The notes beneath the pieces are model-generated. The model worked only from the letters and a program-made list of their open reading frames with translations, ran no database searches and had not been told where the DNA came from. From a virus (taxonomy: Duplodnaviria > Caudoviricetes), in IMG/VR virus record IMGVR_UViG_3300029183_000200, positions 1-40,749 of that record: 40,749 nucleotides of DNA; one strand, written 5' to 3'. Below are positions 307 through 26,435 of the stretch, one piece after another. The position numbers and the translations under genes are program-made. The number at the start of each line of letters is the position of its first letter. Position 1 is the stretch's first letter.

Positions 307-756
307 ATGACCACATCTCATTCTATACCGCCCAGACTCTTCCGATATGTTGAGGTCAGCCTGAACGGGTGCCTGACGTGGAAAGGCAGGTCGCTAACTT
401 CCGGCTATGGCCGTTTCTACCACAAAGGCAAGCGTTGGAGAGCGCACAGGTTTTTCTACGAGCGACTGGTCGGCCCTATCCCTGATAGCCTAGAACTCGA
501 TCACCTGTGCCGTAACAGACTCTGTGTCAACCATAGACATCTTGAAGCGGTAACACACGCAGAAAATGTACGCAGAGGGGAAGCAGGCAAGCATTCTCCT
601 GAGAAACCACCTCAAACTCATTGCAAGCGGGGCCATGAAATGGCAGGCAGGAACTTAGTCATCATGCCTGCCGTAAGCAGAGGCCGGAGGTACACTCGGC
701 GCAAATGTCGAGCATGCCACAACTTAAGAGACCGCCTCTACAGCCGCCGGAGGTAA
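307..756 (+). CDS. HNH endonuclease (HNH_3/homing type) with C-terminal Cys/His domain
   Basis: GYGRF, AHR, LDHLCRNRLCVNHRHLEAVTHAEN, THCKRGH, CRAC; ATG at 307 preferred over GTG at 265, which lies inside a hairpin. Confidence 0.9.
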   Translation: MTTSHSIPPRLFRYVEVSLNGCLTWKGRSLTSGYGRFYHKGKRWRAHRFFYERLVGPIPDSLELDHLCRNRLCVNHRHLEAVTHAENVRRGEAGKHSPEKPPQTHCKRGHEMAGRNLVIMPAVSRGRRYTRRKCRACHNLRDRLYSRRR

Positions 757-768
757 ACTACATATAAC

Positions 769-875
769 GGTGTTTTGGCGGCGGCGTTAAATCCCGAAGC
801 CGTGAGAGAGCCGCCTGGTTGCAACTGGGCAGAGCGCAAAATGCAGGACAGGGTATTCCTGCCCGCCACAGCACC
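769..875 (+). ncRNA. tRNA-like (non-canonical) structured RNA A
   Basis: Closing stem 769-781/863-875 abuts a T-arm-like stem GCAGGA(843-848)/TCCTGC(857-862); two inner hairpins; no canonical TTCG loop. Confidence 0.45.
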
Positions 876-884
876 TATTTAGCA

Positions 885-964
885 GTAGCCGGGGTGAAAA
901 GGCGATCCGGCCGCGCCTAAGACTCCAAGAGCAATAAACGGGAGCGTTAGCCCCGGCTACTCCA
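885..964 (+). ncRNA. structured RNA B ending in T-CCA
   Basis: Perfect 10-bp stem GTAGCCGGGG/CCCCGGCTAC followed by TCCA; inner hairpins GGCG/CGCC and CTCC/GGAG. Confidence 0.5.
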
Positions 965-1043
965 TTCCAAACTAGAACCCTGTTCGGAACAGCATTCCAA
1001 AGCTACTGGACAGTTTCAAGTGTTTCGATGTCGCTGTCAGGGT

Positions 1044-1610
1044 TTACTGTGCAGCGATCAACGCTTCCAGTTCAGCAATACGAGCGTTCAGTTCGTCTAT
1101 CAGTAGCAGAGAGTTGAACTGCGCCTCGATCACAGCGTCTAGTGTCAACCTTTGGGCATCAGCAGCCTCTTGCATATCACTAGAGATCGCAGCTGTGGAT
1201 GCCTGGTGACTGTTGAAGATCCCCTGAAGCTGGTCAATCCCAGAGTTCATAGACGTAACAGCAGAGTCCATCTGTGTGACACGAGTCCCGGAATCAGTTC
1301 CCCATTGCTGCAGCGACTGGTTCAATGAACTGTTGAGGGCCTGGTTCTCTGCAAGCCACACTTCAAAGTCCAGCCAGCTCTGAGCATTAGTTGTCTGAAG
1401 CAGTTCGTTTTGTGCATTGATCGCCCTAGTACGTTCGTGCTCTGCAGTTATCTCGTTGATCCACAACTGCCAGTCAAACGGTTGTCCGGTACGAGGATCT
1501 ATCAAGCCGGGATCAGGAGTAGGGGTGGAGACTTGCGCTCTTGCCTGCGGAGTTGTGCAGGACACAGTAGCTACAGCGAGGATGAATGTAAGAAGTATCA
1601 GGTATCTCAT
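1044..1610 (-). CDS. secreted or lipid-anchored coiled-coil protein (188 aa)
   Basis: GGGAG RBS then MRYLILLTFILAVATVS-C signal/lipobox-like N-terminus; long heptad-rich helical C-terminal half. Confidence 0.7.
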   Translation of the reverse strand: MRYLILLTFILAVATVSCTTPQARAQVSTPTPDPGLIDPRTGQPFDWQLWINEITAEHERTRAINAQNELLQTTNAQSWLDFEVWLAENQALNSSLNQSLQQWGTDSGTRVTQMDSAVTSMNSGIDQLQGIFNSHQASTAAISSDMQEAADAQRLTLDAVIEAQFNSLLLIDELNARIAELEALIAAQ

Positions 1611-1726
1611 GATGTTTGTGCTCCCGGCCAGAACGGTTACGCCGGATTGTCTGACCGGGAACCCCAACCTATTTAGCTACACCAGCGTTAAGTAACTTCC
1701 TCATTGCCTTGTATTAGCCGACAGAA

Positions 1727-1825
1727 TCAGCTACCGCGTGTCATCGTTGACCGCGGAACATTAACCCGCGTTGCAAACAAGTACGCCAACCCGATAAAAC
1801 CCGTGAGAAGAATCAACCGTTTCAT
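1727..1825 (-). CDS. 32-aa single-TM peptide coupled to the tatC stop
   Basis: MKRLILLTGFIGLAYLFATRVNVPRSTMTRGS*; ATGA overlap with tatC stop; below the ORF-track cutoff. Confidence 0.55.
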   Translation of the reverse strand: MKRLILLTGFIGLAYLFATRVNVPRSTMTRGS

Positions 1826-2718
1826 ACCCGCCTGAACACCTTTCGTATCACAGCTTTAGGACGACTCAAAATCCATCTTACAAGACGCCCCAGACTTCTC
1901 ATCCACAGGTAGTCTCCCTCTGACGGATGCGCTGCCCACGCAAGGAACAACCCGACCTGGTACAGCAAGAGCATCGGCCCAGCAACAAACGCCCATGTCC
2001 ACGGATCTGAGGTCGGCGTGATAATCCCAGCAAAGATCATCATTGCTATGGTGGCGTAGACCGACAGGCTCTTCATCTTCCGGTACGACAAAATGTGCAT
2101 CCGTGAGAGCAGGTACATCACAAGCGGGATCTGGAAGATAACGCCCAGCCAGAACATCAGCTTAAGGATCAGTTCGATGTATTGAGGGAGCGTAATCAGC
2201 GCAACCGCCACACCGTCTGCGAAGTTCAGCAGAAACCGCAGGCTGACCTCAAGCAATATGTAGTAGGCGAACGCCGCTCCAGCGATGAAGAGAACGATGG
2301 ACGTTGGCAGGAAGACCAGCAAGAACCGCTGGTACTTCGGAGGCAGCGTAGGCCGGAAGATGTAGTACAGGCCGAACACAGCAAACGGTGCTGCAGTCAC
2401 AAACCCGCCCAACACGCCGACATTGAGCGTTGTAGCTAGAGGATCGGTCGGTGCTGTAAAAACCGGCGCACCATCAAACGGAGAGAGCCTGCCGTCAGCC
2501 GGAGCCAGCAGCCACCTGAATACATCCTTGTGCTTTATCAGCGTGAACGCACCGCCGGCAAAACCAACCACCGTCACCACTACCAGAACTCGAACTATGC
2601 GCCGCCCGAACCGGAGGAATACATCGCGGTCAGGAAGCCACCCAAAGAGATAGACTATGAGCCGGTTTACAAGCCTGCTGAGAGCATTCCAGTCACCGGG
2701 TTCGGGCGCAGTAACCAC
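1822..2718 (-). CDS. tatC: TatC-family membrane protein (divergent)
   Basis: About six TM segments, PVFTAPTD loop, LFIAGAAFAYYIL, GVIFQIPLV, AGIITPTSDP, PMLLLYQVG match the TatC pattern. Confidence 0.92.
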   Translation of the reverse strand: MVTAPEPGDWNALSRLVNRLIVYLFGWLPDRDVFLRFGRRIVRVLVVVTVVGFAGGAFTLIKHKDVFRWLLAPADGRLSPFDGAPVFTAPTDPLATTLNVGVLGGFVTAAPFAVFGLYYIFRPTLPPKYQRFLLVFLPTSIVLFIAGAAFAYYILLEVSLRFLLNFADGVAVALITLPQYIELILKLMFWLGVIFQIPLVMYLLSRMHILSYRKMKSLSVYATIAMMIFAGIITPTSDPWTWAFVAGPMLLLYQVGLFLAWAAHPSEGDYLWMRSLGRLVRWILSRPKAVIRKVFRRV

Positions 2719-2825
2719 TACGAGTTCTTATCGCTGCCCCTGCTGAACAGGTTCTCGATCTTTTTCCAGACAACCAGGATAACTACCAGCGCAGCAATGC
2801 CGCCAACAATGTATGCCCACTCCAT
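2718..2825 (-). CDS. 35-aa TM plus amphipathic-helix peptide (TatA-like topology)
   Basis: AAGGA RBS; MEWAYIVGGIAALVVILVVWKKIENLFSRGSDKNS*; TAG overlaps the tatC GTG. Confidence 0.7.
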   Translation of the reverse strand: MEWAYIVGGIAALVVILVVWKKIENLFSRGSDKNS

Positions 2826-2845
2826 AAAGAGTTCCTTTCAGAGAT

Positions 2846-3096
2846 TCAACCCAGAATCTTCCCTAAAGCAGCGACACGCGCTTGCATCGCTTTAGCTTTC
2901 TTTTTGAGGTTATACATGACCATCCACGTACCCGACACAGACACGGTGACGACAAATACGACGGTCTCTACGACCGCGGTAACTTCTTCGCTAAAAAAGA
3001 GGGAGCCGCCTGAACGATCTTTACCGCTCCCACGCCCAGTCCAATAGAGACCAGTGCGTACCAGCCCAACCAGCTAACAGGCCCTAGAACAATCAT
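2846..3096 (-). CDS. membrane protein: 42 aa (3096-2968) or ~83-aa two-TM product via -1 frameshift; holin-like
   Basis: ATGA coupling to the upstream gene; in-phase T TTT TTA; the -1 frame gives a second TM and a basic tail. Confidence 0.6.
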
Positions 3097-3416
3097 TTCT
3101 TTTTCTTCCCAACTATGCCGTCGAAGACCGCATTCACTCCGTCACGCGCCCCTTTGCCGTAGGTGCGAATGGCCTCCCATGCAGGCCCCATCAAGACTTC
3201 TTTGGCACGGTCTCGTATCTCAATCACATTGTCCCTGATCTCTTCAGGGGTCGGCGGCTTAATAGAGGACTCATCTTCGCCCTCTTCTTCTGGCTCAGGT
3301 TCCGGTTCGTTGACCTCAGACTTCAGCTCTGCTGGTTCTTGAGGCTCAGGCTCACCGACTACAAGACGAGGCCCGGTGTTCTCAGGTTCTGGATTCTCTT
3401 CTCTGTGCTGTTCCAT
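3093..3416 (-). CDS. hypothetical protein, Glu/Pro-rich N-terminus and amphipathic basic C-terminus
   Basis: ORF tightly packed in the late operon. Confidence 0.75.
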   Translation of the reverse strand: MEQHREENPEPENTGPRLVVGEPEPQEPAELKSEVNEPEPEPEEEGEDESSIKPPTPEEIRDNVIEIRDRAKEVLMGPAWEAIRTYGKGARDGVNAVFDGIVGKKKK

Positions 3417-3418
3417 AG

Positions 3419-3625
3419 CTAGTCCGCAGTTGGGTCTGTGCGATCAATGTCCGCTCGTTGTGACTCACGATACTTTAGCACGATAGCCCTTACCTGCCTT
3501 CTCACAAACTGCTTGAAGTCATCTGCCGAAGCTGGCGAGTCAAGGCCCATGTGCTGCTGCACCGCAGCCCTGACCTCTGCCACATAAGCATCGGGAATTG
3601 TTATCGAAACGGTCTGATCTGCCAT
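3419..3625 (-). CDS. small hypothetical protein following the fibre gene
   Basis: Operon packing, GGAGG RBS. Confidence 0.7.
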   Translation of the reverse strand: MADQTVSITIPDAYVAEVRAAVQQHMGLDSPASADDFKQFVRRQVRAIVLKYRESQRADIDRTDPTAD

Positions 3626-5002
3626 CTACTTACCCTCCGGTAACGCTTCAAGTTTCTGCTCAAGAGCCATGATCCGCTTTGCCTGCTGCCAGATCGCACC
3701 CGACTGTGCTCTGAGCAGTTGAGAGACATTCAGCAACCCGCCCTCGCTTCTGGGCGTCGAATAGATACCAGCCTCGATCAATGTCCGCTCGTTGTACTTC
3801 ACAAACTCGTCCCATTCGTCACGGATAATCCCTTTACGATTAGAGGTAAGTTCAACCGTGCGAAGTAGCATTGCGTCATCGAAGGAGTCCAGTGCGGTAT
3901 TACCGTCTGTGTCTGACGCATGGATGTCTCCGTTGCCTTTCACAAGGAAGCGCATTGTTCCGCTATTCCGCATCCCAAAGGCGTTACCTGCATTAGCCAC
4001 CGTTGTGATATTTGTCCCGCCATCAGTCACCTGCGAGTTCAACTCTGTCACAGCACGGGATGAGGTCGTGTCTGTAGTGTCGGCTGCTTCTCCAAGTCTT
4101 CCGTTCAAGACAAGAGCACCGTTCGCCCCACCATCCGCATCCTTGTAACCACGAATGCTAAGGCCACCAGATGTCCCCTCAGTCTTTACAAACTCAAAAT
4201 AGGTGTCCGCTTCCGCAAGGCTGGTCATCGCGTGCGAAACATCAGATGATTTACCTGCAAGAATTTGATCGTCACTTGCTCCCTGGTTAAGTGTGAGGCC
4301 AACTGTCATATCGGCATTTGTGGTCTCGCCAATAAGCACCAGACCGTTACTGAACAACGTGTCACCAGATCCCACCACTTGAGGATCAAAGATCAGGTTT
4401 GTGCCGTCGTACTGGATAGAAGCGTCACCGCCAGCACCCAGTATCAATGACGTGTCAGCAGGAATAGTGACCGTCCCAGCCGAGCCGTCCAGTCTCAGGT
4501 ACTCAGTCAGTGAACCGTTGGTTAGCGCAGAAAAGGCAAGGTCTCCATCCTGAGTCCCGCCTGATGCAACCGTAGTCGCTTGCCATGTGAGTCTTGCCTG
4601 TTCGTCCTGATTGCCTGCACTGTCAGATAGCTTCAGAGAGATGTAAGCAAGGTCGTCGTCTGCAGGAGTGGCGCGGTCTCCCTCGAAAGTAGCAACCTCA
4701 ACTGAGGCAACGTCTTCGGAACGGGTGACGATCAACGCCTCAAGGTTCGCTGCGCTCTCGTTCAGGTTCATGTGCGAGACCTGGAACCTGTCTCTGGCCC
4801 GAAGTCTTACGATGTCTGAACCGTTGGTTATCCGAACATCGAACTGTCCGAGCGTCGAATGAGAGATCGCCCAGTTACCTGAAGAATCCGTAGTGGTTGA
4901 CGCACGCTGCGGAGTTGTCGTGTCGATGTCGAACAGCTCTACGGTAGCGTCTTCAATCGCCGAACCCGTGTCATCGACCACCGATCCCCTGAACTCTGGC
5001 AT
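3626..5002 (-). CDS. tail fibre-like protein
   Basis: N-terminal Ig/carboxypeptidase-regulatory-like domain, Gly/Thr/Asp-rich beta strands, C-terminal coiled-coil chaperone-like end (GAIWQ..LEQKLEAL). Confidence 0.7.
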   Translation of the reverse strand: MPEFRGSVVDDTGSAIEDATVELFDIDTTTPQRASTTTDSSGNWAISHSTLGQFDVRITNGSDIVRLRARDRFQVSHMNLNESAANLEALIVTRSEDVASVEVATFEGDRATPADDDLAYISLKLSDSAGNQDEQARLTWQATTVASGGTQDGDLAFSALTNGSLTEYLRLDGSAGTVTIPADTSLILGAGGDASIQYDGTNLIFDPQVVGSGDTLFSNGLVLIGETTNADMTVGLTLNQGASDDQILAGKSSDVSHAMTSLAEADTYFEFVKTEGTSGGLSIRGYKDADGGANGALVLNGRLGEAADTTDTTSSRAVTELNSQVTDGGTNITTVANAGNAFGMRNSGTMRFLVKGNGDIHASDTDGNTALDSFDDAMLLRTVELTSNRKGIIRDEWDEFVKYNERTLIEAGIYSTPRSEGGLLNVSQLLRAQSGAIWQQAKRIMALEQKLEALPEGK

Positions 5003-5004
5003 AT

Positions 5005-5280
5005 CTATCCTCCGATAACCGATCTGAGCGCGGATGAAGCGTCGTCCAGCGCGTCATTCTCTGAGATGAATTGTATATCCGATGCTACCGCTTCTAATGG
5101 ATTGACCTCTCGCCCTACTGCTATCGCTGTTCTGGGGAACGCCACAAGGAAACTCACTCCCGTACCTGCAGGGTTGAACAGGAAATCTCTTGGCTCCCGC
5201 CGACCTGTACGGTGCAGTGCCTGGTAGACGGCATACTCCGCATCAGAACCACCTCTGTCTGTAAACTGCTCAGTAGCCAC
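5005..5280 (-). CDS. small protein with degenerate DUF559/Vsr-like nuclease pattern
   Basis: GSDAEYAVYQAL..DF..VSFL...AIAV pattern. Confidence 0.4.
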   Translation of the reverse strand: MATEQFTDRGGSDAEYAVYQALHRTGRREPRDFLFNPAGTGVSFLVAFPRTAIAVGREVNPLEAVASDIQFISENDALDDASSALRSVIGG

Positions 5281-7181
5281 TACTCAACCGCCCTGTCTGT
5301 ATCAGTGGCCTCTGGCTCGGCAAACGTGACCGTCACAGATCCGTAATCTGTCTGTCCTGATTCCTCTGAAGTCTGAAGGTCTAACGTGTCCATCAGGTAG
5401 ACCTGCTCCCCAGACGAGTCAGCGCGGTACGCCACTTCGATCAGCTTCTTCTTGTTCAAGGAAGTGCGAAGGTTCTTGAACTGGGTGACTGGCGGCACAC
5501 CTGCCACGGGCTTTGTTAAGTCTAGGCTGGCACGTATGCCGTAGAGCGTGGTGATCCGCGGTCTCCATGTAAGCGTCAGCTTGATTAGCTGCGGAGTGTT
5601 CGTAGTCGTTGTGCCGCGGGCAAGCGTAATTTTCCACTTCCATGCCCTGAACGAGACTCCCTGCTTGTTCACATCGTTCGGCAGGCGGTACTTCTTTTCG
5701 CCGCCTTCGTCTTTTGTCGCTATCGTGGTGAACGACTCAACGTAATCGGTGGCGTACTCGATCTTCACCGTCTCATCAGTCGTAGGGTTCAGCGTCTCGA
5801 CAATGGCGGAGAGGGCTAGCTTCTGGTGGTTGTGCATGTTCATGTCGAACCACGGCGACTCCAAAACAGCCTCGTCTCCGAACTCTGAATCCGTCACCTG
5901 TAGCGGGTTCACAACGTCCACAGGAAGCTGCATGTAGTAGACACGCTGGTTAGCCGCCCACCACAGCCTGTAAGAGTTGTACGCGTTACCTACGACTCCT
6001 GCGGTAATCCCACGGGCAGACTCACCTGAGAGCCACTTGAACTCCCAGCCACGTTCGTTCCAGCCCAGTATCGACGAGAACCCTGTCTGTGACCCGAAGG
6101 TGACTCCGTGATGAAACCTGACACCACGGGATGCGCGCGTAGAGAGCGAGGAAACAGACTGTGCGGTGGAGGCATCCAGAAGTGCCAGCAAATCGTTGTG
6201 CGAGCCTATCAGGGACGTTATTACGCCCCTTTTGTCAGAAGGCATACCGTGGTCAAGGTCTGGGCCAACTGTCTGAACTACGGTCTGGTCTGAGCCTGCC
6301 TGGAATGAGTAGACCGCATTACCTGCTGATGTGAAGATCCTGCCACGCCATACTTCCGCACCCTTACCGCCGTCTGGGTGGACAGGGAGTTGAAGGTCAG
6401 TCGGCACAAACCTTGCGTTCTCTTCGTCATGAACAAGGATGCCCTGATTCGTGACTGCATAGATGTGCTCGTTACGGTCTGGGCCGCGAGCGACAAGTAG
6501 TTTGGTGACGCTACCCGGTGGCAGTTGAAGCTGAGCATCAGCCGTCCATGTCTCTGTCAGGTCGTCCGTGTAGTACATCTGGCCTGTATTGGTGATGCCC
6601 CAAAGAAGGTCTGCCCAGAAGACAACGTACTTGATTGCCTGCCCGGTGTTCTCTGCCCACGTAGACGAGTTGGTTGCGTAGTCAACATCTGTGCCGTTGG
6701 CGATCACCAGCGTCTCTGTGCCGTTCAGCAGTCCGACAGCAGAATCAGTAGCGGATGCCGCTAGCATGCGTACGCTCGAACCCCATGAATCTGTCGAAGA
6801 GTCGTACACATGAACAGCGGTTCCGTAGGTGGCGAAGACCTCGTCTTGAAAGATGGTCAGTGTGTCAATATTTGTCGCAGTTCCAGCCGCAGTAAGGACT
6901 GCCCTGCGTGGCAGGATGAACGTGTCCTTGTACCGTAGTTGTCCGGTTGACCACCACACGCGCCGAACATCGTCGGGTATGTCTCCGCGCTCGACGCCGA
7001 TACCGTCGCGGAAGTCGCCCAAAGAGAACTCCGAAGCGAGGGGGTTGGACGAGTCTGAGAAGTCTCCTATTGTGACCTTGCCGGGCTGCCTTGAGGCGAG
7101 GAAGTTCTGAACGCGCCCGTTCAGCCGGTACGTCTTCCGGTCGATGCGGATCAGGTTCTCTTCTATCGGCTGAGAGGTCAT
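5280..7181 (-). CDS. tail nozzle/tubular protein B-like (beta-propeller)
   Basis: 633 aa, Trp/Asp-rich beta repeats, located downstream of the adaptor. Confidence 0.6.
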   Translation of the reverse strand: MTSQPIEENLIRIDRKTYRLNGRVQNFLASRQPGKVTIGDFSDSSNPLASEFSLGDFRDGIGVERGDIPDDVRRVWWSTGQLRYKDTFILPRRAVLTAAGTATNIDTLTIFQDEVFATYGTAVHVYDSSTDSWGSSVRMLAASATDSAVGLLNGTETLVIANGTDVDYATNSSTWAENTGQAIKYVVFWADLLWGITNTGQMYYTDDLTETWTADAQLQLPPGSVTKLLVARGPDRNEHIYAVTNQGILVHDEENARFVPTDLQLPVHPDGGKGAEVWRGRIFTSAGNAVYSFQAGSDQTVVQTVGPDLDHGMPSDKRGVITSLIGSHNDLLALLDASTAQSVSSLSTRASRGVRFHHGVTFGSQTGFSSILGWNERGWEFKWLSGESARGITAGVVGNAYNSYRLWWAANQRVYYMQLPVDVVNPLQVTDSEFGDEAVLESPWFDMNMHNHQKLALSAIVETLNPTTDETVKIEYATDYVESFTTIATKDEGGEKKYRLPNDVNKQGVSFRAWKWKITLARGTTTTNTPQLIKLTLTWRPRITTLYGIRASLDLTKPVAGVPPVTQFKNLRTSLNKKKLIEVAYRADSSGEQVYLMDTLDLQTSEESGQTDYGSVTVTFAEPEATDTDRAVE

Positions 7182-23787: not shown

Positions 23788-25436
23788 TAGCTCGCTCGTC
23801 TCATTTCACGGATGATGTCGCGGACATCTCTGGAAGCACGGTTCCGCTTTTTCTGCTTGATCTTCGAGGACTTTCTGCCAGTAAGTGTATGCCCTAACTG
23901 GTTTATGAACAGATAGGTGAGCGCGCGCACAGCGTCACAGTATTTATCTTCGGGCGTCTTGCCTATTACCTGTCCTGTGCGGTCAGTCGCCCACCTGTAC
24001 GGATGGATCTCCCCCGAATTGGGGTGTCCTGCCGGATACGGCATCCCGCCAAATTCAGCTGCCGCGCCCATCATCGAAGGTGAGATTGCAAACACCGGCT
24101 GTCCACAATTGGAGTCTACGCAGAGGTTGAGCATCGACTGCATCCGGTAGATGCCAGGAAGGATGTTGACCTTCTCTGACATGCAGACCATACCGGTCTC
24201 TTTGCGCCAAACCTCTTTAACCGGGTCTGATGCTCCTGCATGGTACGTTCCTGCAATGTCAATAACGCCGACCTTGTGCGGATTCTTCCACCAGAACCGA
24301 CCCATTGCGATCTCGCAGATCTTCTCGTTCTTCAGTTTCGTCTCGTATATCTCGTCAATGCCCCAGAAGTGCTGTCTACCGCAGGGGAGATGCCGACGTT
24401 GCACGACCTCTACTGCATACGACGAGGGCTGGCCTGAGAAGCCGGGGTCGATGCCGATAAGCACAGGCTCTTCAGGGTTGTACTCCGCATCTTCTGGAAG
24501 GATGTGAACGGTCGGGTCGAACGTCTCGAACACCCTGCCCTTTGGCGGCGATGGAATGGCTAAGACACGTTCCTTGTACTCGTCTTCTGAGAGGTCGGCG
24601 CGCATCTGCCGTATCTCTGGGTCTCGGTCTCCCTTCTTATAGATGAAGATGTTGGAGAACGAGGGCATTGAGAACGACTTGGCGTTATCTCTTGTCTGGT
24701 TTGCAGGGAGTTGCCACTTCGAGTAGAGCGTGGGATACCAGCCTGTCGAACCCTCAAAGGTCGAGATCATGATGATCGCACCGTAGCCGGGGAAGTCAGC
24801 GCGGGCGCGGGCGACACGGGAGCGAAGCCGGGTGTACGTATCGTAGGTGCAGATTGCGGCCTCGCAGAGCAGGACGAACACCGGTGATTCCATCCTGAGC
24901 GCAGCCATGCCGTCGTCTGATGACTTGGTCTTTATCTTGAAGACGCCGCCTGGAACCTGAATGTGAATCTCGCCAGGATCTACCTTCGAGTCGGCCTTGA
25001 GAATGGTCAGGTTCTTGGTCTGGTTGAGCCACGTTTTCAGGTACTCGAACTCACGAGATGTCTGCTCGTATGATGCACCGACCAGCCATGCGACTTCGTT
25101 AGCCGCCCTGCGTGAGCCGTTTGCGTGCTCCCCGAGAAAGGCCAAAAGAATCATGTACGCCTTCATCGCGCCTGTGAATGACTTTCCTACCTGCTCGCCA
25201 CCGGCTACGAGGCATGTGAGGTGGTCGTCTTCGAGAATGTCCAGCTGGTAGTTGTACGGGTCTTGCAGAGGCTTGCCGAGTTTCTTTCCGCACACGTGGC
25301 AGTTCTCCCCTGTAGGGACGTACCCGCACTTCCGGTGTTTGACATAGTCGGACGGCTCGAAGTCGCGCCAGATGGCCTTCTGCATAGCATCAATGGGGAA
25401 CTGGTGCAGGTTCGTCCTTGTGTCTGCCGTGACCAT
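23787..25436 (-). CDS. terminase large subunit
   Basis: Walker A GGEQVGKS, Walker B VLLCEAA, coupling motif STFEG, RNase H-like IGIDPG and DKYCDAVRAL. Confidence 0.93.
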   Translation of the reverse strand: MVTADTRTNLHQFPIDAMQKAIWRDFEPSDYVKHRKCGYVPTGENCHVCGKKLGKPLQDPYNYQLDILEDDHLTCLVAGGEQVGKSFTGAMKAYMILLAFLGEHANGSRRAANEVAWLVGASYEQTSREFEYLKTWLNQTKNLTILKADSKVDPGEIHIQVPGGVFKIKTKSSDDGMAALRMESPVFVLLCEAAICTYDTYTRLRSRVARARADFPGYGAIIMISTFEGSTGWYPTLYSKWQLPANQTRDNAKSFSMPSFSNIFIYKKGDRDPEIRQMRADLSEDEYKERVLAIPSPPKGRVFETFDPTVHILPEDAEYNPEEPVLIGIDPGFSGQPSSYAVEVVQRRHLPCGRQHFWGIDEIYETKLKNEKICEIAMGRFWWKNPHKVGVIDIAGTYHAGASDPVKEVWRKETGMVCMSEKVNILPGIYRMQSMLNLCVDSNCGQPVFAISPSMMGAAAEFGGMPYPAGHPNSGEIHPYRWATDRTGQVIGKTPEDKYCDAVRALTYLFINQLGHTLTGRKSSKIKQKKRNRASRDVRDIIREMRRAS

Positions 25437-25771
25437 TAAGCGATCTCCGGTTCGATAAAGATTTCCAGCTTTTCGGCTGATGAGTTCGGATAGGTCTGGA
25501 TTGCCCCGCTTACGAACGTGACCTCAAACTCACCTTTGTACGTACCGGGAGTATCTGTGTCTCCCGAAGCCCACGTATATTTGACGATTCCAGACGCCTC
25601 CGTGACAGAGGTTACGGACTGCTCTGAGACCTTGACGACACCGCCTATGTCTGACATTGAGAACACGATGGTCGCACCGGTTACGTCTACTGCGTTATTG
25701 TCGCCGTCCTTCAGGGTTACCTGCAGGTCTGGCGAGGTATCGTTCTGCTTCATGAAAAACTGTGGCATCAC
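25436..25771 (-). CDS. BppU N-terminal-like protein (copy 3)
   Basis: MKQNDTSP..LKD..G.V.Y.W..GDTDTPG.Y.GEF.VT....TYPN. Confidence 0.75.
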   Translation of the reverse strand: MMPQFFMKQNDTSPDLQVTLKDGDNNAVDVTGATIVFSMSDIGGVVKVSEQSVTSVTEASGIVKYTWASGDTDTPGTYKGEFEVTFVSGAIQTYPNSSAEKLEIFIEPEIA

Positions 25772-26094
25772 GCGATTTCAGGCTCGATAATGACTTCAAT
25801 CTGCTTCTCTTTTGAGTTCGGGTACGAAGTAACATCTCCCGCAAGGTTCGTGACCTTAAACTCTCCGAGATAGTTACCCGGTGTGTCCGTATCTCCCGCA
25901 GCCCAGTCGTAGCGGACGGTTCCTGAAGGCCCATCGACTATCGTTGCAGCTGCGTTGAACTTCCTGTTCCCGCCAGAAGCGAGTCCAAAGAAGACGGAAA
26001 ACCCGGTAAGATTCTCGACGTTGCCCTCTCCGTCTTTCAGGACAGCCTGAATTGAAGGGGATGTGTCATTTTCCTTGATGTAGAACTTCGGCAT
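25768..26094 (-). CDS. BppU N-terminal-like protein (copy 2)
   Basis: IKENDTSP..GTVRYDWAAGDTDTPGNYLGEFKVT..SYPN. Confidence 0.75.
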   Translation of the reverse strand: MPKFYIKENDTSPSIQAVLKDGEGNVENLTGFSVFFGLASGGNRKFNAAATIVDGPSGTVRYDWAAGDTDTPGNYLGEFKVTNLAGDVTSYPNSKEKQIEVIIEPEIA

Positions 26095-26435
26095 CAGAAG
26101 ACCCTCTCTTCGACGATGACGTTCAGCTGCTCAGAGCGTGCGTTGGGCCATGTCCTGACGGTTCCATCTGAGAACGTGACCTGGAACTCTCCCTTGAACG
26201 TACCTGGTGAGGTAAGAACACCGGTCTCCCAGAAGTAACTGACGATGCCGAGAGCGGGATTAGGCACAGATGCAGGCCGGTTATTGATATTCCCGACGTT
26301 GCCTCCAATGTCAGACATGGAGAAGACGACGGTTGCATCTGTCAGGTCGATTGCGTTCTCGTCGCCGTCGAGAAGCGTGGCCTCGATAGCAGGGAGGTCG
26401 TCTGAGTCTTTTATGTAGAAGAACGATTCTGCCAT
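26094..26435 (-). CDS. BppU N-terminal-like protein (copy 1)
   Basis: IKDSDDLP..GIVSYFW..PGTFKGEFQVTF..TWPN. Confidence 0.75.
   Translation of the reverse strand: MAESFFYIKDSDDLPAIEATLLDGDENAIDLTDATVVFSMSDIGGNVGNINNRPASVPNPALGIVSYFWETGVLTSPGTFKGEFQVTFSDGTVRTWPNARSEQLNVIVEERVF

What the first reader, a model, noticed from the sequence alone, without database searches (positions are those of the whole stretch)
1822..2718. TatC has lost the twin-arginine binding site but kept the TatA/B-docking half
Manual alignment to E. coli TatC: HLIELRKR becomes VFLRFGRR (H12, E15, R17 lost) and WAFIAPALYKHERR becomes YYIFRPTLPPKYQR (F94, E103 lost). The C-terminal ITPTSDP (D211 equivalent), FQIP and PM.LLY motifs remain. 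It also has an extra basic amphipathic tail (WMRSLGRLVRWIL) reminiscent of a TatA/B amphipathic helix. Inference: neofunctionalised as a signal-independent activator or dominant-negative sink for TatA.
Basis: partly seen in the sequence, partly recalled or inferred. Interest (0 to 1): 0.85.

Follow-up and report, generated by a model that had tools for sequence, protein, structure and literature searches.

The report
Phage cassette built on signal-blind TatC
A family of tailed phages that likely infect wall-less Dehalococcoidia bacteria carries a four-gene cassette built around a captured protein-export subunit (TatC) whose signal-reading residues are replaced, and it likely uses this cassette to open the host membrane and escape, in the gene slot where sister phages keep an unrelated, weakly holin-like membrane module.

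Summary
Observation confirmed and much wider than one gene. The window is a 40.7-kb tailed phage. ORF 1822-2718(-) is a TatC-fold protein of a 75-sequence clade nested in Dehalococcoidia TatC. Of 67 full-length members, 56 lack all of H12, E15, F94 and E103 and none keeps more than two; 46 of 46 Dehalococcoidia TatCs keep all four. New residues are conserved in their place, T208 and D211 stay, and a basic amphipathic tail is added.

The gene closes a conserved cassette at the end of the virion operon: soluble gene A, membrane gene B (split at a -1 slippery site here and in two relatives), TatA/B-anchor-like gene C, then TatC. Sister phages hold an unrelated membrane module with a weak holin match in that slot (28 versus 18 records, none with both). 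No endolysin was found in seven genomes, and the nearest host genomes lack peptidoglycan markers.

Best reading, inferred and untested: a signal-independent, Tat-derived membrane-opening module for lysis (0.45). Rivals: private translocase (0.22), host-Tat blocker (0.2).

The parts
1822..2718 (-). TatC-derived membrane protein (TatC*), 298 aa, six transmembrane helices plus an N-terminal helix and a C-terminal basic amphipathic tail; its GTG start overlaps the stop of gene C
2587..2619 (-). Remodelled N-terminal signal-binding segment (residues 34-44): H12->F, L13->G, E15->R; clade consensus F 50/67, G 48/67, R or K 58/67
2332..2361 (-). Remodelled TM2-TM3 loop (residues 120-129): F94->I (clade L 63/75), E103->Y (clade E only 9/75)
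1993..2019 (-). TM5-TM6 turn (residues 234-242): T208, P209, D211 kept; Q215 is W here (clade Q 45/71)
1825..1938 (-). 38-residue basic amphipathic C-terminal tail, modelled as a helix (residues 270-297)
2718..2825 (-). Gene C: 35-aa single-pass membrane peptide with an acidic residue before the helix; the family aligns weakly with the TatA/TatB membrane anchor, with no TatA hinge or amphipathic-helix motif
2968..3096 (-). Gene B, zero-frame ORF (42 aa): first hydrophobic helix, matching positions 2-28 of the gene B family profile
2992..2998 (-). In-frame slippery heptamer U_UUU_UUA, candidate programmed -1 frameshift; the same T run is in contigs of three runs of one study
2846..2991 (-). Gene B, -1 frame continuation: second hydrophobic helix and basic helix, matching positions 31-75 of the family profile
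3093..3416 (-). Gene A: 107-aa soluble protein with an acidic low-complexity N-half and a conserved helical C-half; no known family; its stop overlaps the start of gene B
3419..7181 (-). Context: last presumed virion (tail) genes of the late operon, which run into gene A with gaps of 0-2 bases; the 633-aa gene at 5280-7181 was the marker used to collect sister phages

Best explanation
This is a phage TatC whose twin-arginine-binding residues are replaced, the last gene of a conserved four-gene cassette at the end of the virion operon, and it likely works with its three neighbours as a signal-independent membrane-opening module that would release progeny from a host that likely has no peptidoglycan. 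Shown: fold, clade, residue replacement, cassette order, position, and exchange with another membrane module. Inferred steps: (1) the cassette is co-expressed late; (2) TatC* forms the membrane-thinning cup, with gene C filling the TM5/TM6 site that TatB normally holds, which frees it from host control; (3) gene B (hydrophobic helices plus a basic amphipathic helix) and the new TatC tail play the membrane-weakening role of TatA, possibly with host TatA; (4) because no export signal is read, opening is not tied to cargo and does not reseal, so the cell depolarises and ruptures; (5) gene A and the short/long ratio of gene B set the timing (least supported step).
For: Genes A, B and C were found upstream of TatC* in 25, 25 and 23 of 25 loci chosen for having enough upstream DNA (most of these loci helped build the A and C profiles; the two low C scores still have a small membrane ORF there). 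The cassette follows the tail genes in podovirus-like loci and in loci with other tail gene sets. Among sister phages collected by a tail gene, 18 loci hold module M and/or H in this slot (16 both, 2 M only) and 28 records hold TatC*; none holds both. The tail-gene tree needs at least 3 changes of module, and L001 (TatC*) is 78% identical in the tail protein to L215 and L253, which carry M+H. H is a 51-59 aa two-helix protein with weak holin matches: PHROG 785 at E 3e-4 and 6e-4 in 2 of 4 tested, PF16083 at E 0.006 in 1 of 6. No endolysin or holin family was hit in 59 window ORFs, 28 window ORFs in PHROGs or 277 ORFs of six relatives. Host: TatC* nests among Dehalococcoidia TatCs, and a prophage of this family is integrated in a genome of that class. 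Five near genomes and the lysogen have no MurD over cut-off; the five have no transglycosylase. SAR202 and Dehalococcoidales lack peptidoglycan synthesis (10.1101/2021.08.23.457424, passages). Tat transport is modelled as local membrane disruption and depolarisation by TatA docking at TM5/TM6 with D211 (PMC13673990 section 10), and D211 and T208 are kept in 69 of 71.
Against: No functional data. The holin matches of H are weak, below Pfam's cut-off and expected for small hydrophobic proteins; M has no family or fold match, so the slot's identity as a lysis slot is inferred. Ends of late operons also collect unrelated accessory genes (own knowledge). Absence of endolysin is expected for any phage of a wall-less host, and ORFs under 95 aa were not scanned in the relatives. 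Gene B resembles the TatA/B amphipathic helix only weakly (hhalign 16-17, not above shuffles; 19.8 versus shuffle maximum 16.5 with 105 rows, probability 15%). A 300-residue TatC is a costly way to make a lesion that a 60-aa holin can make. In E. coli, E15G and F94L were built and are not in the table of inactivating changes (PMC3712464, passages), so some cargo recognition may survive or have changed. Exclusivity was seen on 10-kb flanks for the M/H phages, not whole genomes, and some loci are near-copies.
Confidence: 0.45

Rival explanations
1. Private translocase or insertase: TatC*, gene C and gene B form a minimal Tat-like machine with a rewired pocket that exports or inserts one phage protein carrying a non-twin-arginine, perhaps acidic, signal (gene A or gene B itself).
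For: The pocket is replaced by conserved new residues, with charge reversal E15->R/K in 58 of 67; N-terminal net charge is +5 versus +2 in hosts. Gene A is net acidic in 17 of 22. The periplasmic cap, P48, G121, F169, P172 and D211 stay conserved.
Against: No conserved folded cargo travels with the cassette. Gene A is net basic in 5 of 22 and largely low-complexity. Gene C lacks the TatA hinge and amphipathic motif. It does not explain the exchange with M+H unless the exported protein is itself lytic, in which case it merges with the best reading.
Confidence: 0.22
2. Host-Tat blocker: TatC* joins host TatC trimers or binds host TatA/TatB and stops twin-arginine export, for superinfection exclusion or host shut-off.
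For: E. coli TatC F94A/E103A cannot bind signal peptides yet still cross-links to TatB at the polar cluster (PMC5577447, passages). T208 and D211 are kept in 69 of 71 and Q215 in 45 of 71.
Against: It brings three conserved partners that a simple sink would not need. It is tightly coupled to the virion operon, with no sigma-70-like promoter found in 700-4000. Q215 and E170 are lost in this copy. It alternates with an unrelated membrane module that has nothing of Tat.
Confidence: 0.2
3. Helper subunit as in haloarchaea: a signal-blind TatC* pairs with host TatC in an asymmetric but active translocase and sustains host export during infection (auxiliary gene).
For: Haloarchaeal TatCt lacks F94 and E103 in both halves and is proposed to work with intact TatCo (PMC13673990 section 11).
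Against: Late-operon position, two partner families of unknown kind, the long divergent stem (0.82 changes per column) and exchange with M+H.
Confidence: 0.07
4. A decaying captured host gene or a misbinned cellular paralog without function in the phage.
For: Gene B is split in this genome, which could be pseudogenisation.
Against: 75 sequences form the clade, 37 database relatives have 36-78% identity, and column conservation is similar to host TatC. The clade is found in 13 viral records; the single hit among the best 80 genome loci is a 2-kb contig with the same cassette (L017). Gene B was found in 0 of 401 Dehalococcoidia genomes.
Confidence: 0.02

Closest known systems
TatC, twin-arginine translocase receptor (PF00902, TIGR00945), Dehalococcoidia type
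   Same: Six-helix fold, periplasmic cap with P48, TM4 G-x-x-F-x-x-P, TM5/TM6 turn T208-P209-D211; nearest sequences are Dehalococcoidia TatCs with a similar cap.
   Different: H12, E15, F94 and E103 replaced clade-wide; long basic amphipathic tail; viral; flanked by genes A, B and C instead of recognisable tatA and tatB.
Haloarchaeal TatCt (14-helix double TatC)
   Same: Natural TatC domains that lack F94 and E103 (PMC13673990 section 11).
   Different: TatCt is a chromosomal fusion encoded beside an intact TatCo and essential for export. TatC* is a single domain of separate origin, viral, with no intact TatC beside it.
Phage lysis cassettes (holin, antiholin, endolysin, spanin)
   Same: Position at the end of the late operon, small membrane proteins, modular exchange between sister phages, and possibly a short and a long product from one gene (the general features are recalled, not from a call).
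   Different: No endolysin, no holin family match in the cassette itself, and the core is a protein-translocase subunit.
PHROG 36238 (unknown function) and tatC hits in the INPHARED phage collection
   Same: TatC-like sequence in phage databases: PHROG match E 3e-14; 14 records by tblastn.
   Different: All 14 are under 30% identical; those with annotation look like host chromosomal contigs. None was shown to belong to this clade; their context was not opened.

Membership tests
TatC receptor (PF00902 / TIGR00945) | Profile score above curated cut-off | tested here: met
   PF00902 141.2 versus 25.1; TIGR00945 133.1 versus 132.7, marginal
TatC receptor (PF00902 / TIGR00945) | Six-transmembrane TatC fold | tested here: met
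   AlphaFold2 pLDDT 87; Foldseek matches only TatC at E<=0.001
TatC receptor (PF00902 / TIGR00945) | Twin-arginine binding residues H12, E15, F94, E103 | tested here: not met
   F37, R40, I120, Y129 in this protein; clade 3/67, 0/67, 3/75, 9/75 versus 46/46 each
TatC receptor (PF00902 / TIGR00945) | TM5/TM6 polar cluster for TatA/B (T208, Q215) and D211 | tested here: inconclusive
   T208 and D211 kept; Q215 is W here, Q in 45 of 71 of the clade
TatC receptor (PF00902 / TIGR00945) | Supports export of twin-arginine substrates | not testable with these tools
   needs complementation of a tatC deletion
TatA/TatB family (for gene C) | Short N-terminal membrane helix with a polar residue at position 8 | tested here: met
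   hhalign 24.9 over 14 columns versus shuffle maximum 16.6; E or D in the first 12 residues in 26 of 26; weak
TatA/TatB family (for gene C) | Hinge (FG or GP) followed by the conserved amphipathic helix; Pfam TatA/B match | tested here: not met
   alignment stops after the membrane helix; 0 of 26 members hit a TatA/B family at E<=1
TatA/TatB family (for gene B) | Homology to the TatA/B helix-hinge-amphipathic helix unit | tested here: inconclusive
   not above shuffles with 21 rows; 19.8 versus 16.5 with 105 rows, probability 15%; no Pfam TatA/B hit
Haloarchaeal TatCt | 14-helix fusion of two TatC domains beside an intact TatCo | tested here: not met
   298 aa single domain; one TatC hit in the window
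Holin-endolysin lysis cassette | Position at the end of the late operon with small membrane proteins | tested here: met
Holin-endolysin lysis cassette | Endolysin gene, and a holin family match in the cassette | tested here: not met
   no endolysin hit in 59 + 277 ORFs; only single weak holin hits for genes B and C (1 of 21 at E 0.18, 1 of 26 at E 0.046)
Holin-endolysin lysis cassette | Timed lethal membrane lesion on expression | not testable with these tools
   needs expression tests
Programmed -1 ribosomal frameshift (gene B) | In-frame X_XXY_YYZ heptamer that joins two homologous halves, recurring in relatives | tested here: met
   window, L001, L139; halves match profile positions 2-28 and 31-75, 0 of 300 shuffles as high; none of 23 intact genes has such a heptamer at the junction
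Programmed -1 ribosomal frameshift (gene B) | Downstream stimulatory RNA structure | tested here: not met
   z-scores -0.61, -1.67, 0.04

The most novel reading that the evidence does not exclude
Phages of peptidoglycan-less Dehalococcoidia (SAR202-like) turned the host's Tat export machine into an endolysin-free lysis device: a signal-blind TatC scaffold, a TatA/B-derived plug, a frameshift-tuned membrane-weakening subunit and an acidic soluble trigger. It is one of several interchangeable exit modules for wall-less bacteria, and a natural cargo-uncoupled Tat pore.
Probability: 0.4. Interest if true: 0.92.

Novelty: categorically new. Interest (0 to 1): 0.8.

Why it matters
I found no description of how tailed phages leave bacteria that lack peptidoglycan in this group, nor of a phage-encoded TatC (the 2026 Tat review PMC13673990 has 0 uses of 'virus' and no phage TatC among its 'phage' passages). 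These searches cover an open-access library only. The cassette gives named genes to test for lysis of such hosts and points to the M+H module as a second candidate. For Tat biology it is a natural experiment: a TatC lineage that lost cargo recognition stepwise (basal members keep H12 and F94 only) while keeping the cap, TM4 and D211. That makes the debated question of whether TatC plus TatA-type helices disrupt the membrane without cargo directly testable. Under any of the top three readings it is an undescribed kind of phage use of the Tat system.

Tried and rejected
Misalignment as the cause of the missing residues: rejected by flanking anchors and 46 host controls. Host-lineage trait: rejected, Dehalococcoidia TatCs keep all four residues. 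Assembly error at the gene B T run: unlikely; contigs of runs X1, X3 and X4 bridge it without gaps, though all are one study and X1 may be the source. Complex prediction of TatC* + gene C + gene A residues 45-107, partner gene A: no answer, score 0.00, neither support nor evidence against. No RNA holder listed for the region. Atlas searches for genes A and B gave nothing usable. Pfam scans of genes A, B and C gave no consistent family. Homology of the TatC* tail to the basic N-terminal helices of M: 13.8 versus shuffle maximum 12.8, too weak to claim. Fold of M: pLDDT 62, helical N-part and beta-rich C-part, no PDB match at E<=0.001. M and H have no match in INPHARED. No stimulatory hairpin after the slippery site. 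Single-protein scans of viral contigs with TatC* or P0004 found nothing, so the context of the two closest relatives (78% and 59%) was not seen. The G124 prophage and L206 carry neither module but other small membrane ORFs in the slot. The careful tree did not finish; the quick tree was used and no one-clade test was run. The 'all-cell' column wrongly includes two phage fragments (L012, L013), so I used only the 46-row Dehalococcoidia column. Earlier-findings look-ups returned nothing. No supplementary files were read; bioRxiv supplements are closed and could hold per-genome peptidoglycan tables.

Full report
WHAT THE WINDOW IS. The window is a whole virus record of 40,749 bases. It has a terminase small subunit (PF03592), a large terminase (PHROG 2), a weak capsid match and tail-like genes in one long minus-strand operon, and a Rad52-like recombinase and HNH genes on the plus strand. 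The ORF in question is near the far end of that operon.

THE OBSERVATION. ORF 1822-2718(-) encodes 298 aa that passes PF00902 and only just passes TIGR00945. Its AlphaFold2 model (pLDDT 87) matches only TatC structures. Aligned with E. coli TatC from NC_000913, H12, E15, R17, F94 and E103 are F37, R40, V42, I120 and Y129. T208, P209 and D211 are kept, but E170, Q215 and E227 are Q196, W242 and Q254. F94 and E103 are called the key twin-arginine binding residues in PMC13673990 (section 11 read), and the F94A/E103A variant cannot bind signal peptides but still holds TatB (PMC5577447, passages). Against over-reading single changes: E15G and F94L were built in E. coli and are not in the table of inactivating substitutions, while F94S, E103G, E103K and Q215R are (PMC3712464, passages).

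A CLADE, NOT AN ODD COPY. The protein search gave 48 hits at E<=1e-20 among 6,006 candidates: itself, 37 close relatives and 10 ordinary TatCs. A tree of the 219 distinct sequences, minus gappy rows, puts 75 in one clade on a long stem (some rows are the same gene seen as protein and as locus). In a 63-row quick IQ-TREE run, 20 of 20 clade rows form one group (SH-aLRT 100, stem 0.82). With four Dehalococcoidia TatCs it is separated from the rest at 96, and those share a similar cap segment. Residue counts, clade versus 46 Dehalococcoidia loci picked by record title: H12 3/67 versus 46/46, E15 0/67 versus 46/46, F94 3/75 versus 46/46, E103 9/75 versus 46/46; P48 70/70, T208 69/71, D211 69/71, Q215 45/71, E170 51/72. 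Of 67 full-length members, 56 keep none of the four signal residues, 8 keep one and 3 keep two. The three with two keep H12 and F94, and the two of them in the tree branch at the base, which suggests stepwise loss. The replacements are themselves conserved (F 50/67, G 48/67, R/K 58/67, L 63/75), so the pocket was rebuilt and made basic rather than left to decay. A basic amphipathic tail of 25 aa or more is present in 63 of 71 versus 2 of 46.

THE CASSETTE. Upstream of TatC* lie three small genes in fixed order. Gene A (3093-3416) is soluble, mostly acidic, with a conserved helical C-half. Gene B has two hydrophobic helices and a basic helix; its family has 126 clusters at 50% identity. Gene C (2718-2825) is a single-helix peptide; some members begin like TatA/B, and the family profile aligns with the membrane anchor of host TatA/B (score 24.9 over 14 columns, shuffle maximum 16.6) but lacks the hinge and amphipathic motif. 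In 25 loci chosen for enough upstream DNA, A, B and C scored in 25, 25 and 23 (partly by construction). The window's own A, C and both halves of B each beat 300 of 300 shuffles against profiles built without them. The genes overlap or abut from the tail genes through to TatC*, except for a 20-base gap between B and C, and no sigma-70-like promoter was found, so late co-expression is inferred.

GENE B IS SPLIT AT A SLIPPERY SITE. In the window, L001 and L139 gene B stops early in frame 0 and continues in the -1 frame from an in-frame U_UUU_UUA/C heptamer. None of 23 intact genes has such a heptamer at that junction; one has one near its end. L183 and L197 are split near the same place in the +1 frame without such a heptamer, making 5 split of 29 inspected. 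Further half-proteins appear among the 126 representatives, two of them with the same PFF junction residues (DNA not seen). The T run is in contigs of three runs of one study. No stimulatory structure was found. Programmed recoding to a short and a long product is likely but unproven.

THE SLOT. Using a tail gene as marker I fetched the best 80 of 229 sister loci. Most end too soon. Of those that reach far enough, 18 hold a different module in the same place: M, a 330-490 aa membrane protein (all 18), and H, a 51-59 aa two-helix protein (16 of them). TatC* was found in 28 records (10 largely whole records and 18 shorter loci); none had M or H, and no M/H locus had TatC* within its 10-kb flank; 58 loci had neither. 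The two modules are interleaved on the tail-gene tree (at least 3 changes; 31 rows, 5 loci skipped), and L001 with TatC* is 78% identical to L215 and L253 with M+H. H has weak holin matches (PHROG 785, E 3e-4 and 6e-4, 2 of 4; PF16083, E 0.006, 1 of 6). M has no family or fold match. L206 and a prophage carry yet other small membrane ORFs there. Record G009 holds two different virion modules, each ending in a TatC* cassette.

HOST AND ENVELOPE. A prophage of this family, with shared portal-like, terminase and tail proteins, is integrated in a 1.36-Mb contig of 1 of 401 genomes of the class of the nearest TatC donors. That genome has one ordinary TatC and no MurD. Five genomes with near TatCs have no MurD over cut-off and no transglycosylase, while 10 of 14 controls pass (completeness unknown). 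SAR202 and Dehalococcoidales lack peptidoglycan synthesis (10.1101/2021.08.23.457424, passages). No endolysin or holin family was hit in the window or in 277 of the 326 ORFs of 95 aa or more listed for six relatives (cassette genes and overlapping shadow ORFs were left out). The host of this exact phage is inferred, not shown.

MECHANISM. Tat transport is modelled as TatC-triggered, TatA-mediated local membrane disruption at TM5/TM6, with D211 sensing the potential (PMC13673990 sections 7 and 10). A TatC that keeps this side, drops cargo reading, adds a basic amphipathic tail, supplies its own TatA/B-like anchor and sits where sister phages keep a weakly holin-like module is most simply read as a cargo-uncoupled membrane opener used for exit from a wall-less cell (0.45). 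A private translocase with a rewired pocket (0.22) and a blocker of host Tat (0.2) remain open. All functional steps are inference.

COMPARISON AND NOVELTY. It is TatC-derived but fails the defining signal-binding test, so it should not be filed as a working TatC receptor. The one natural precedent I found for signal-blind TatC is haloarchaeal TatCt; the same review says bacterial second TatCs keep the site. Searches for phage TatC and for lysis of these hosts were seen as listings only and showed no paper on this. on TatA toxicity gave nothing I used. The cassette as a system matches nothing I could find, hence 'categorically new', with the function unproven. Interest 0.8.

Noticed in passing
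window 1044-1610 (-): 188-aa protein with a lipoprotein-like signal (lipobox judged by eye) and a long coiled-coil-like body directly after TatC*, spanin-like in layout; no Pfam or PHROG match and not shared with the other cassette loci examined.
   Followed up: partly
L253:15935-17236, L235:15917-16966 and 16 other loci: Module M+H: an undescribed 330-490 aa membrane protein (basic amphipathic N-part, beta-rich C-part) with a two-helix holin-like peptide; a second candidate exit module for wall-less hosts.
   Followed up: partly
L001:11583-11807, L253:17263-17481, L235:15625-15804: A 60-75 aa helical protein family sits next to both kinds of module in many phages; function unknown.
   Followed up: no
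G124:C4 about 784000-818000 (L273-L275): Integrated prophage of this phage family in a Dehalococcoidia-class genome, with an integrase-like gene and a third set of small membrane ORFs in the slot.
   Followed up: partly
G009 (L011, L181-L183): 64.6-kb viral record with two different virion gene sets, each ending in a TatC* cassette; may be a chimera of two phages.
   Followed up: no
L002:10857-11402 and L003:10908-11471 (-): A DedA/VTT-domain membrane protein (PF09335) converges on TatC* in two phages.
   Followed up: no
L007:11-2703 and L177:3269-5028 (G004): Sugar-synthesis cluster (NeuB, cytidylyltransferase, epimerase, methyltransferase) inside a phage virion operon.
   Followed up: no
L003:9056-9175, L012, L013, L099, L101, L115, L197, L267: A tiny very basic peptide (about 26-40 aa) recurs near the end of the late operon in many family members.
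   Followed up: no
window 932-1075: Strain variation just downstream of the operon: contigs of runs X2 and X3 replace 57 bases at 1017-1075 with 278 other letters; short repeats near 900-992.
   Followed up: no
L107:494-601 and 617-760; L110:305-502: Gene C is duplicated in L107; L110 has an extra membrane ORF between genes A and B.
   Followed up: no
window 25436-26435 (-): Three tandem paralogous 108-113 aa genes with weak BppU N-terminal matches between the terminase and a long repeat protein.
   Followed up: no
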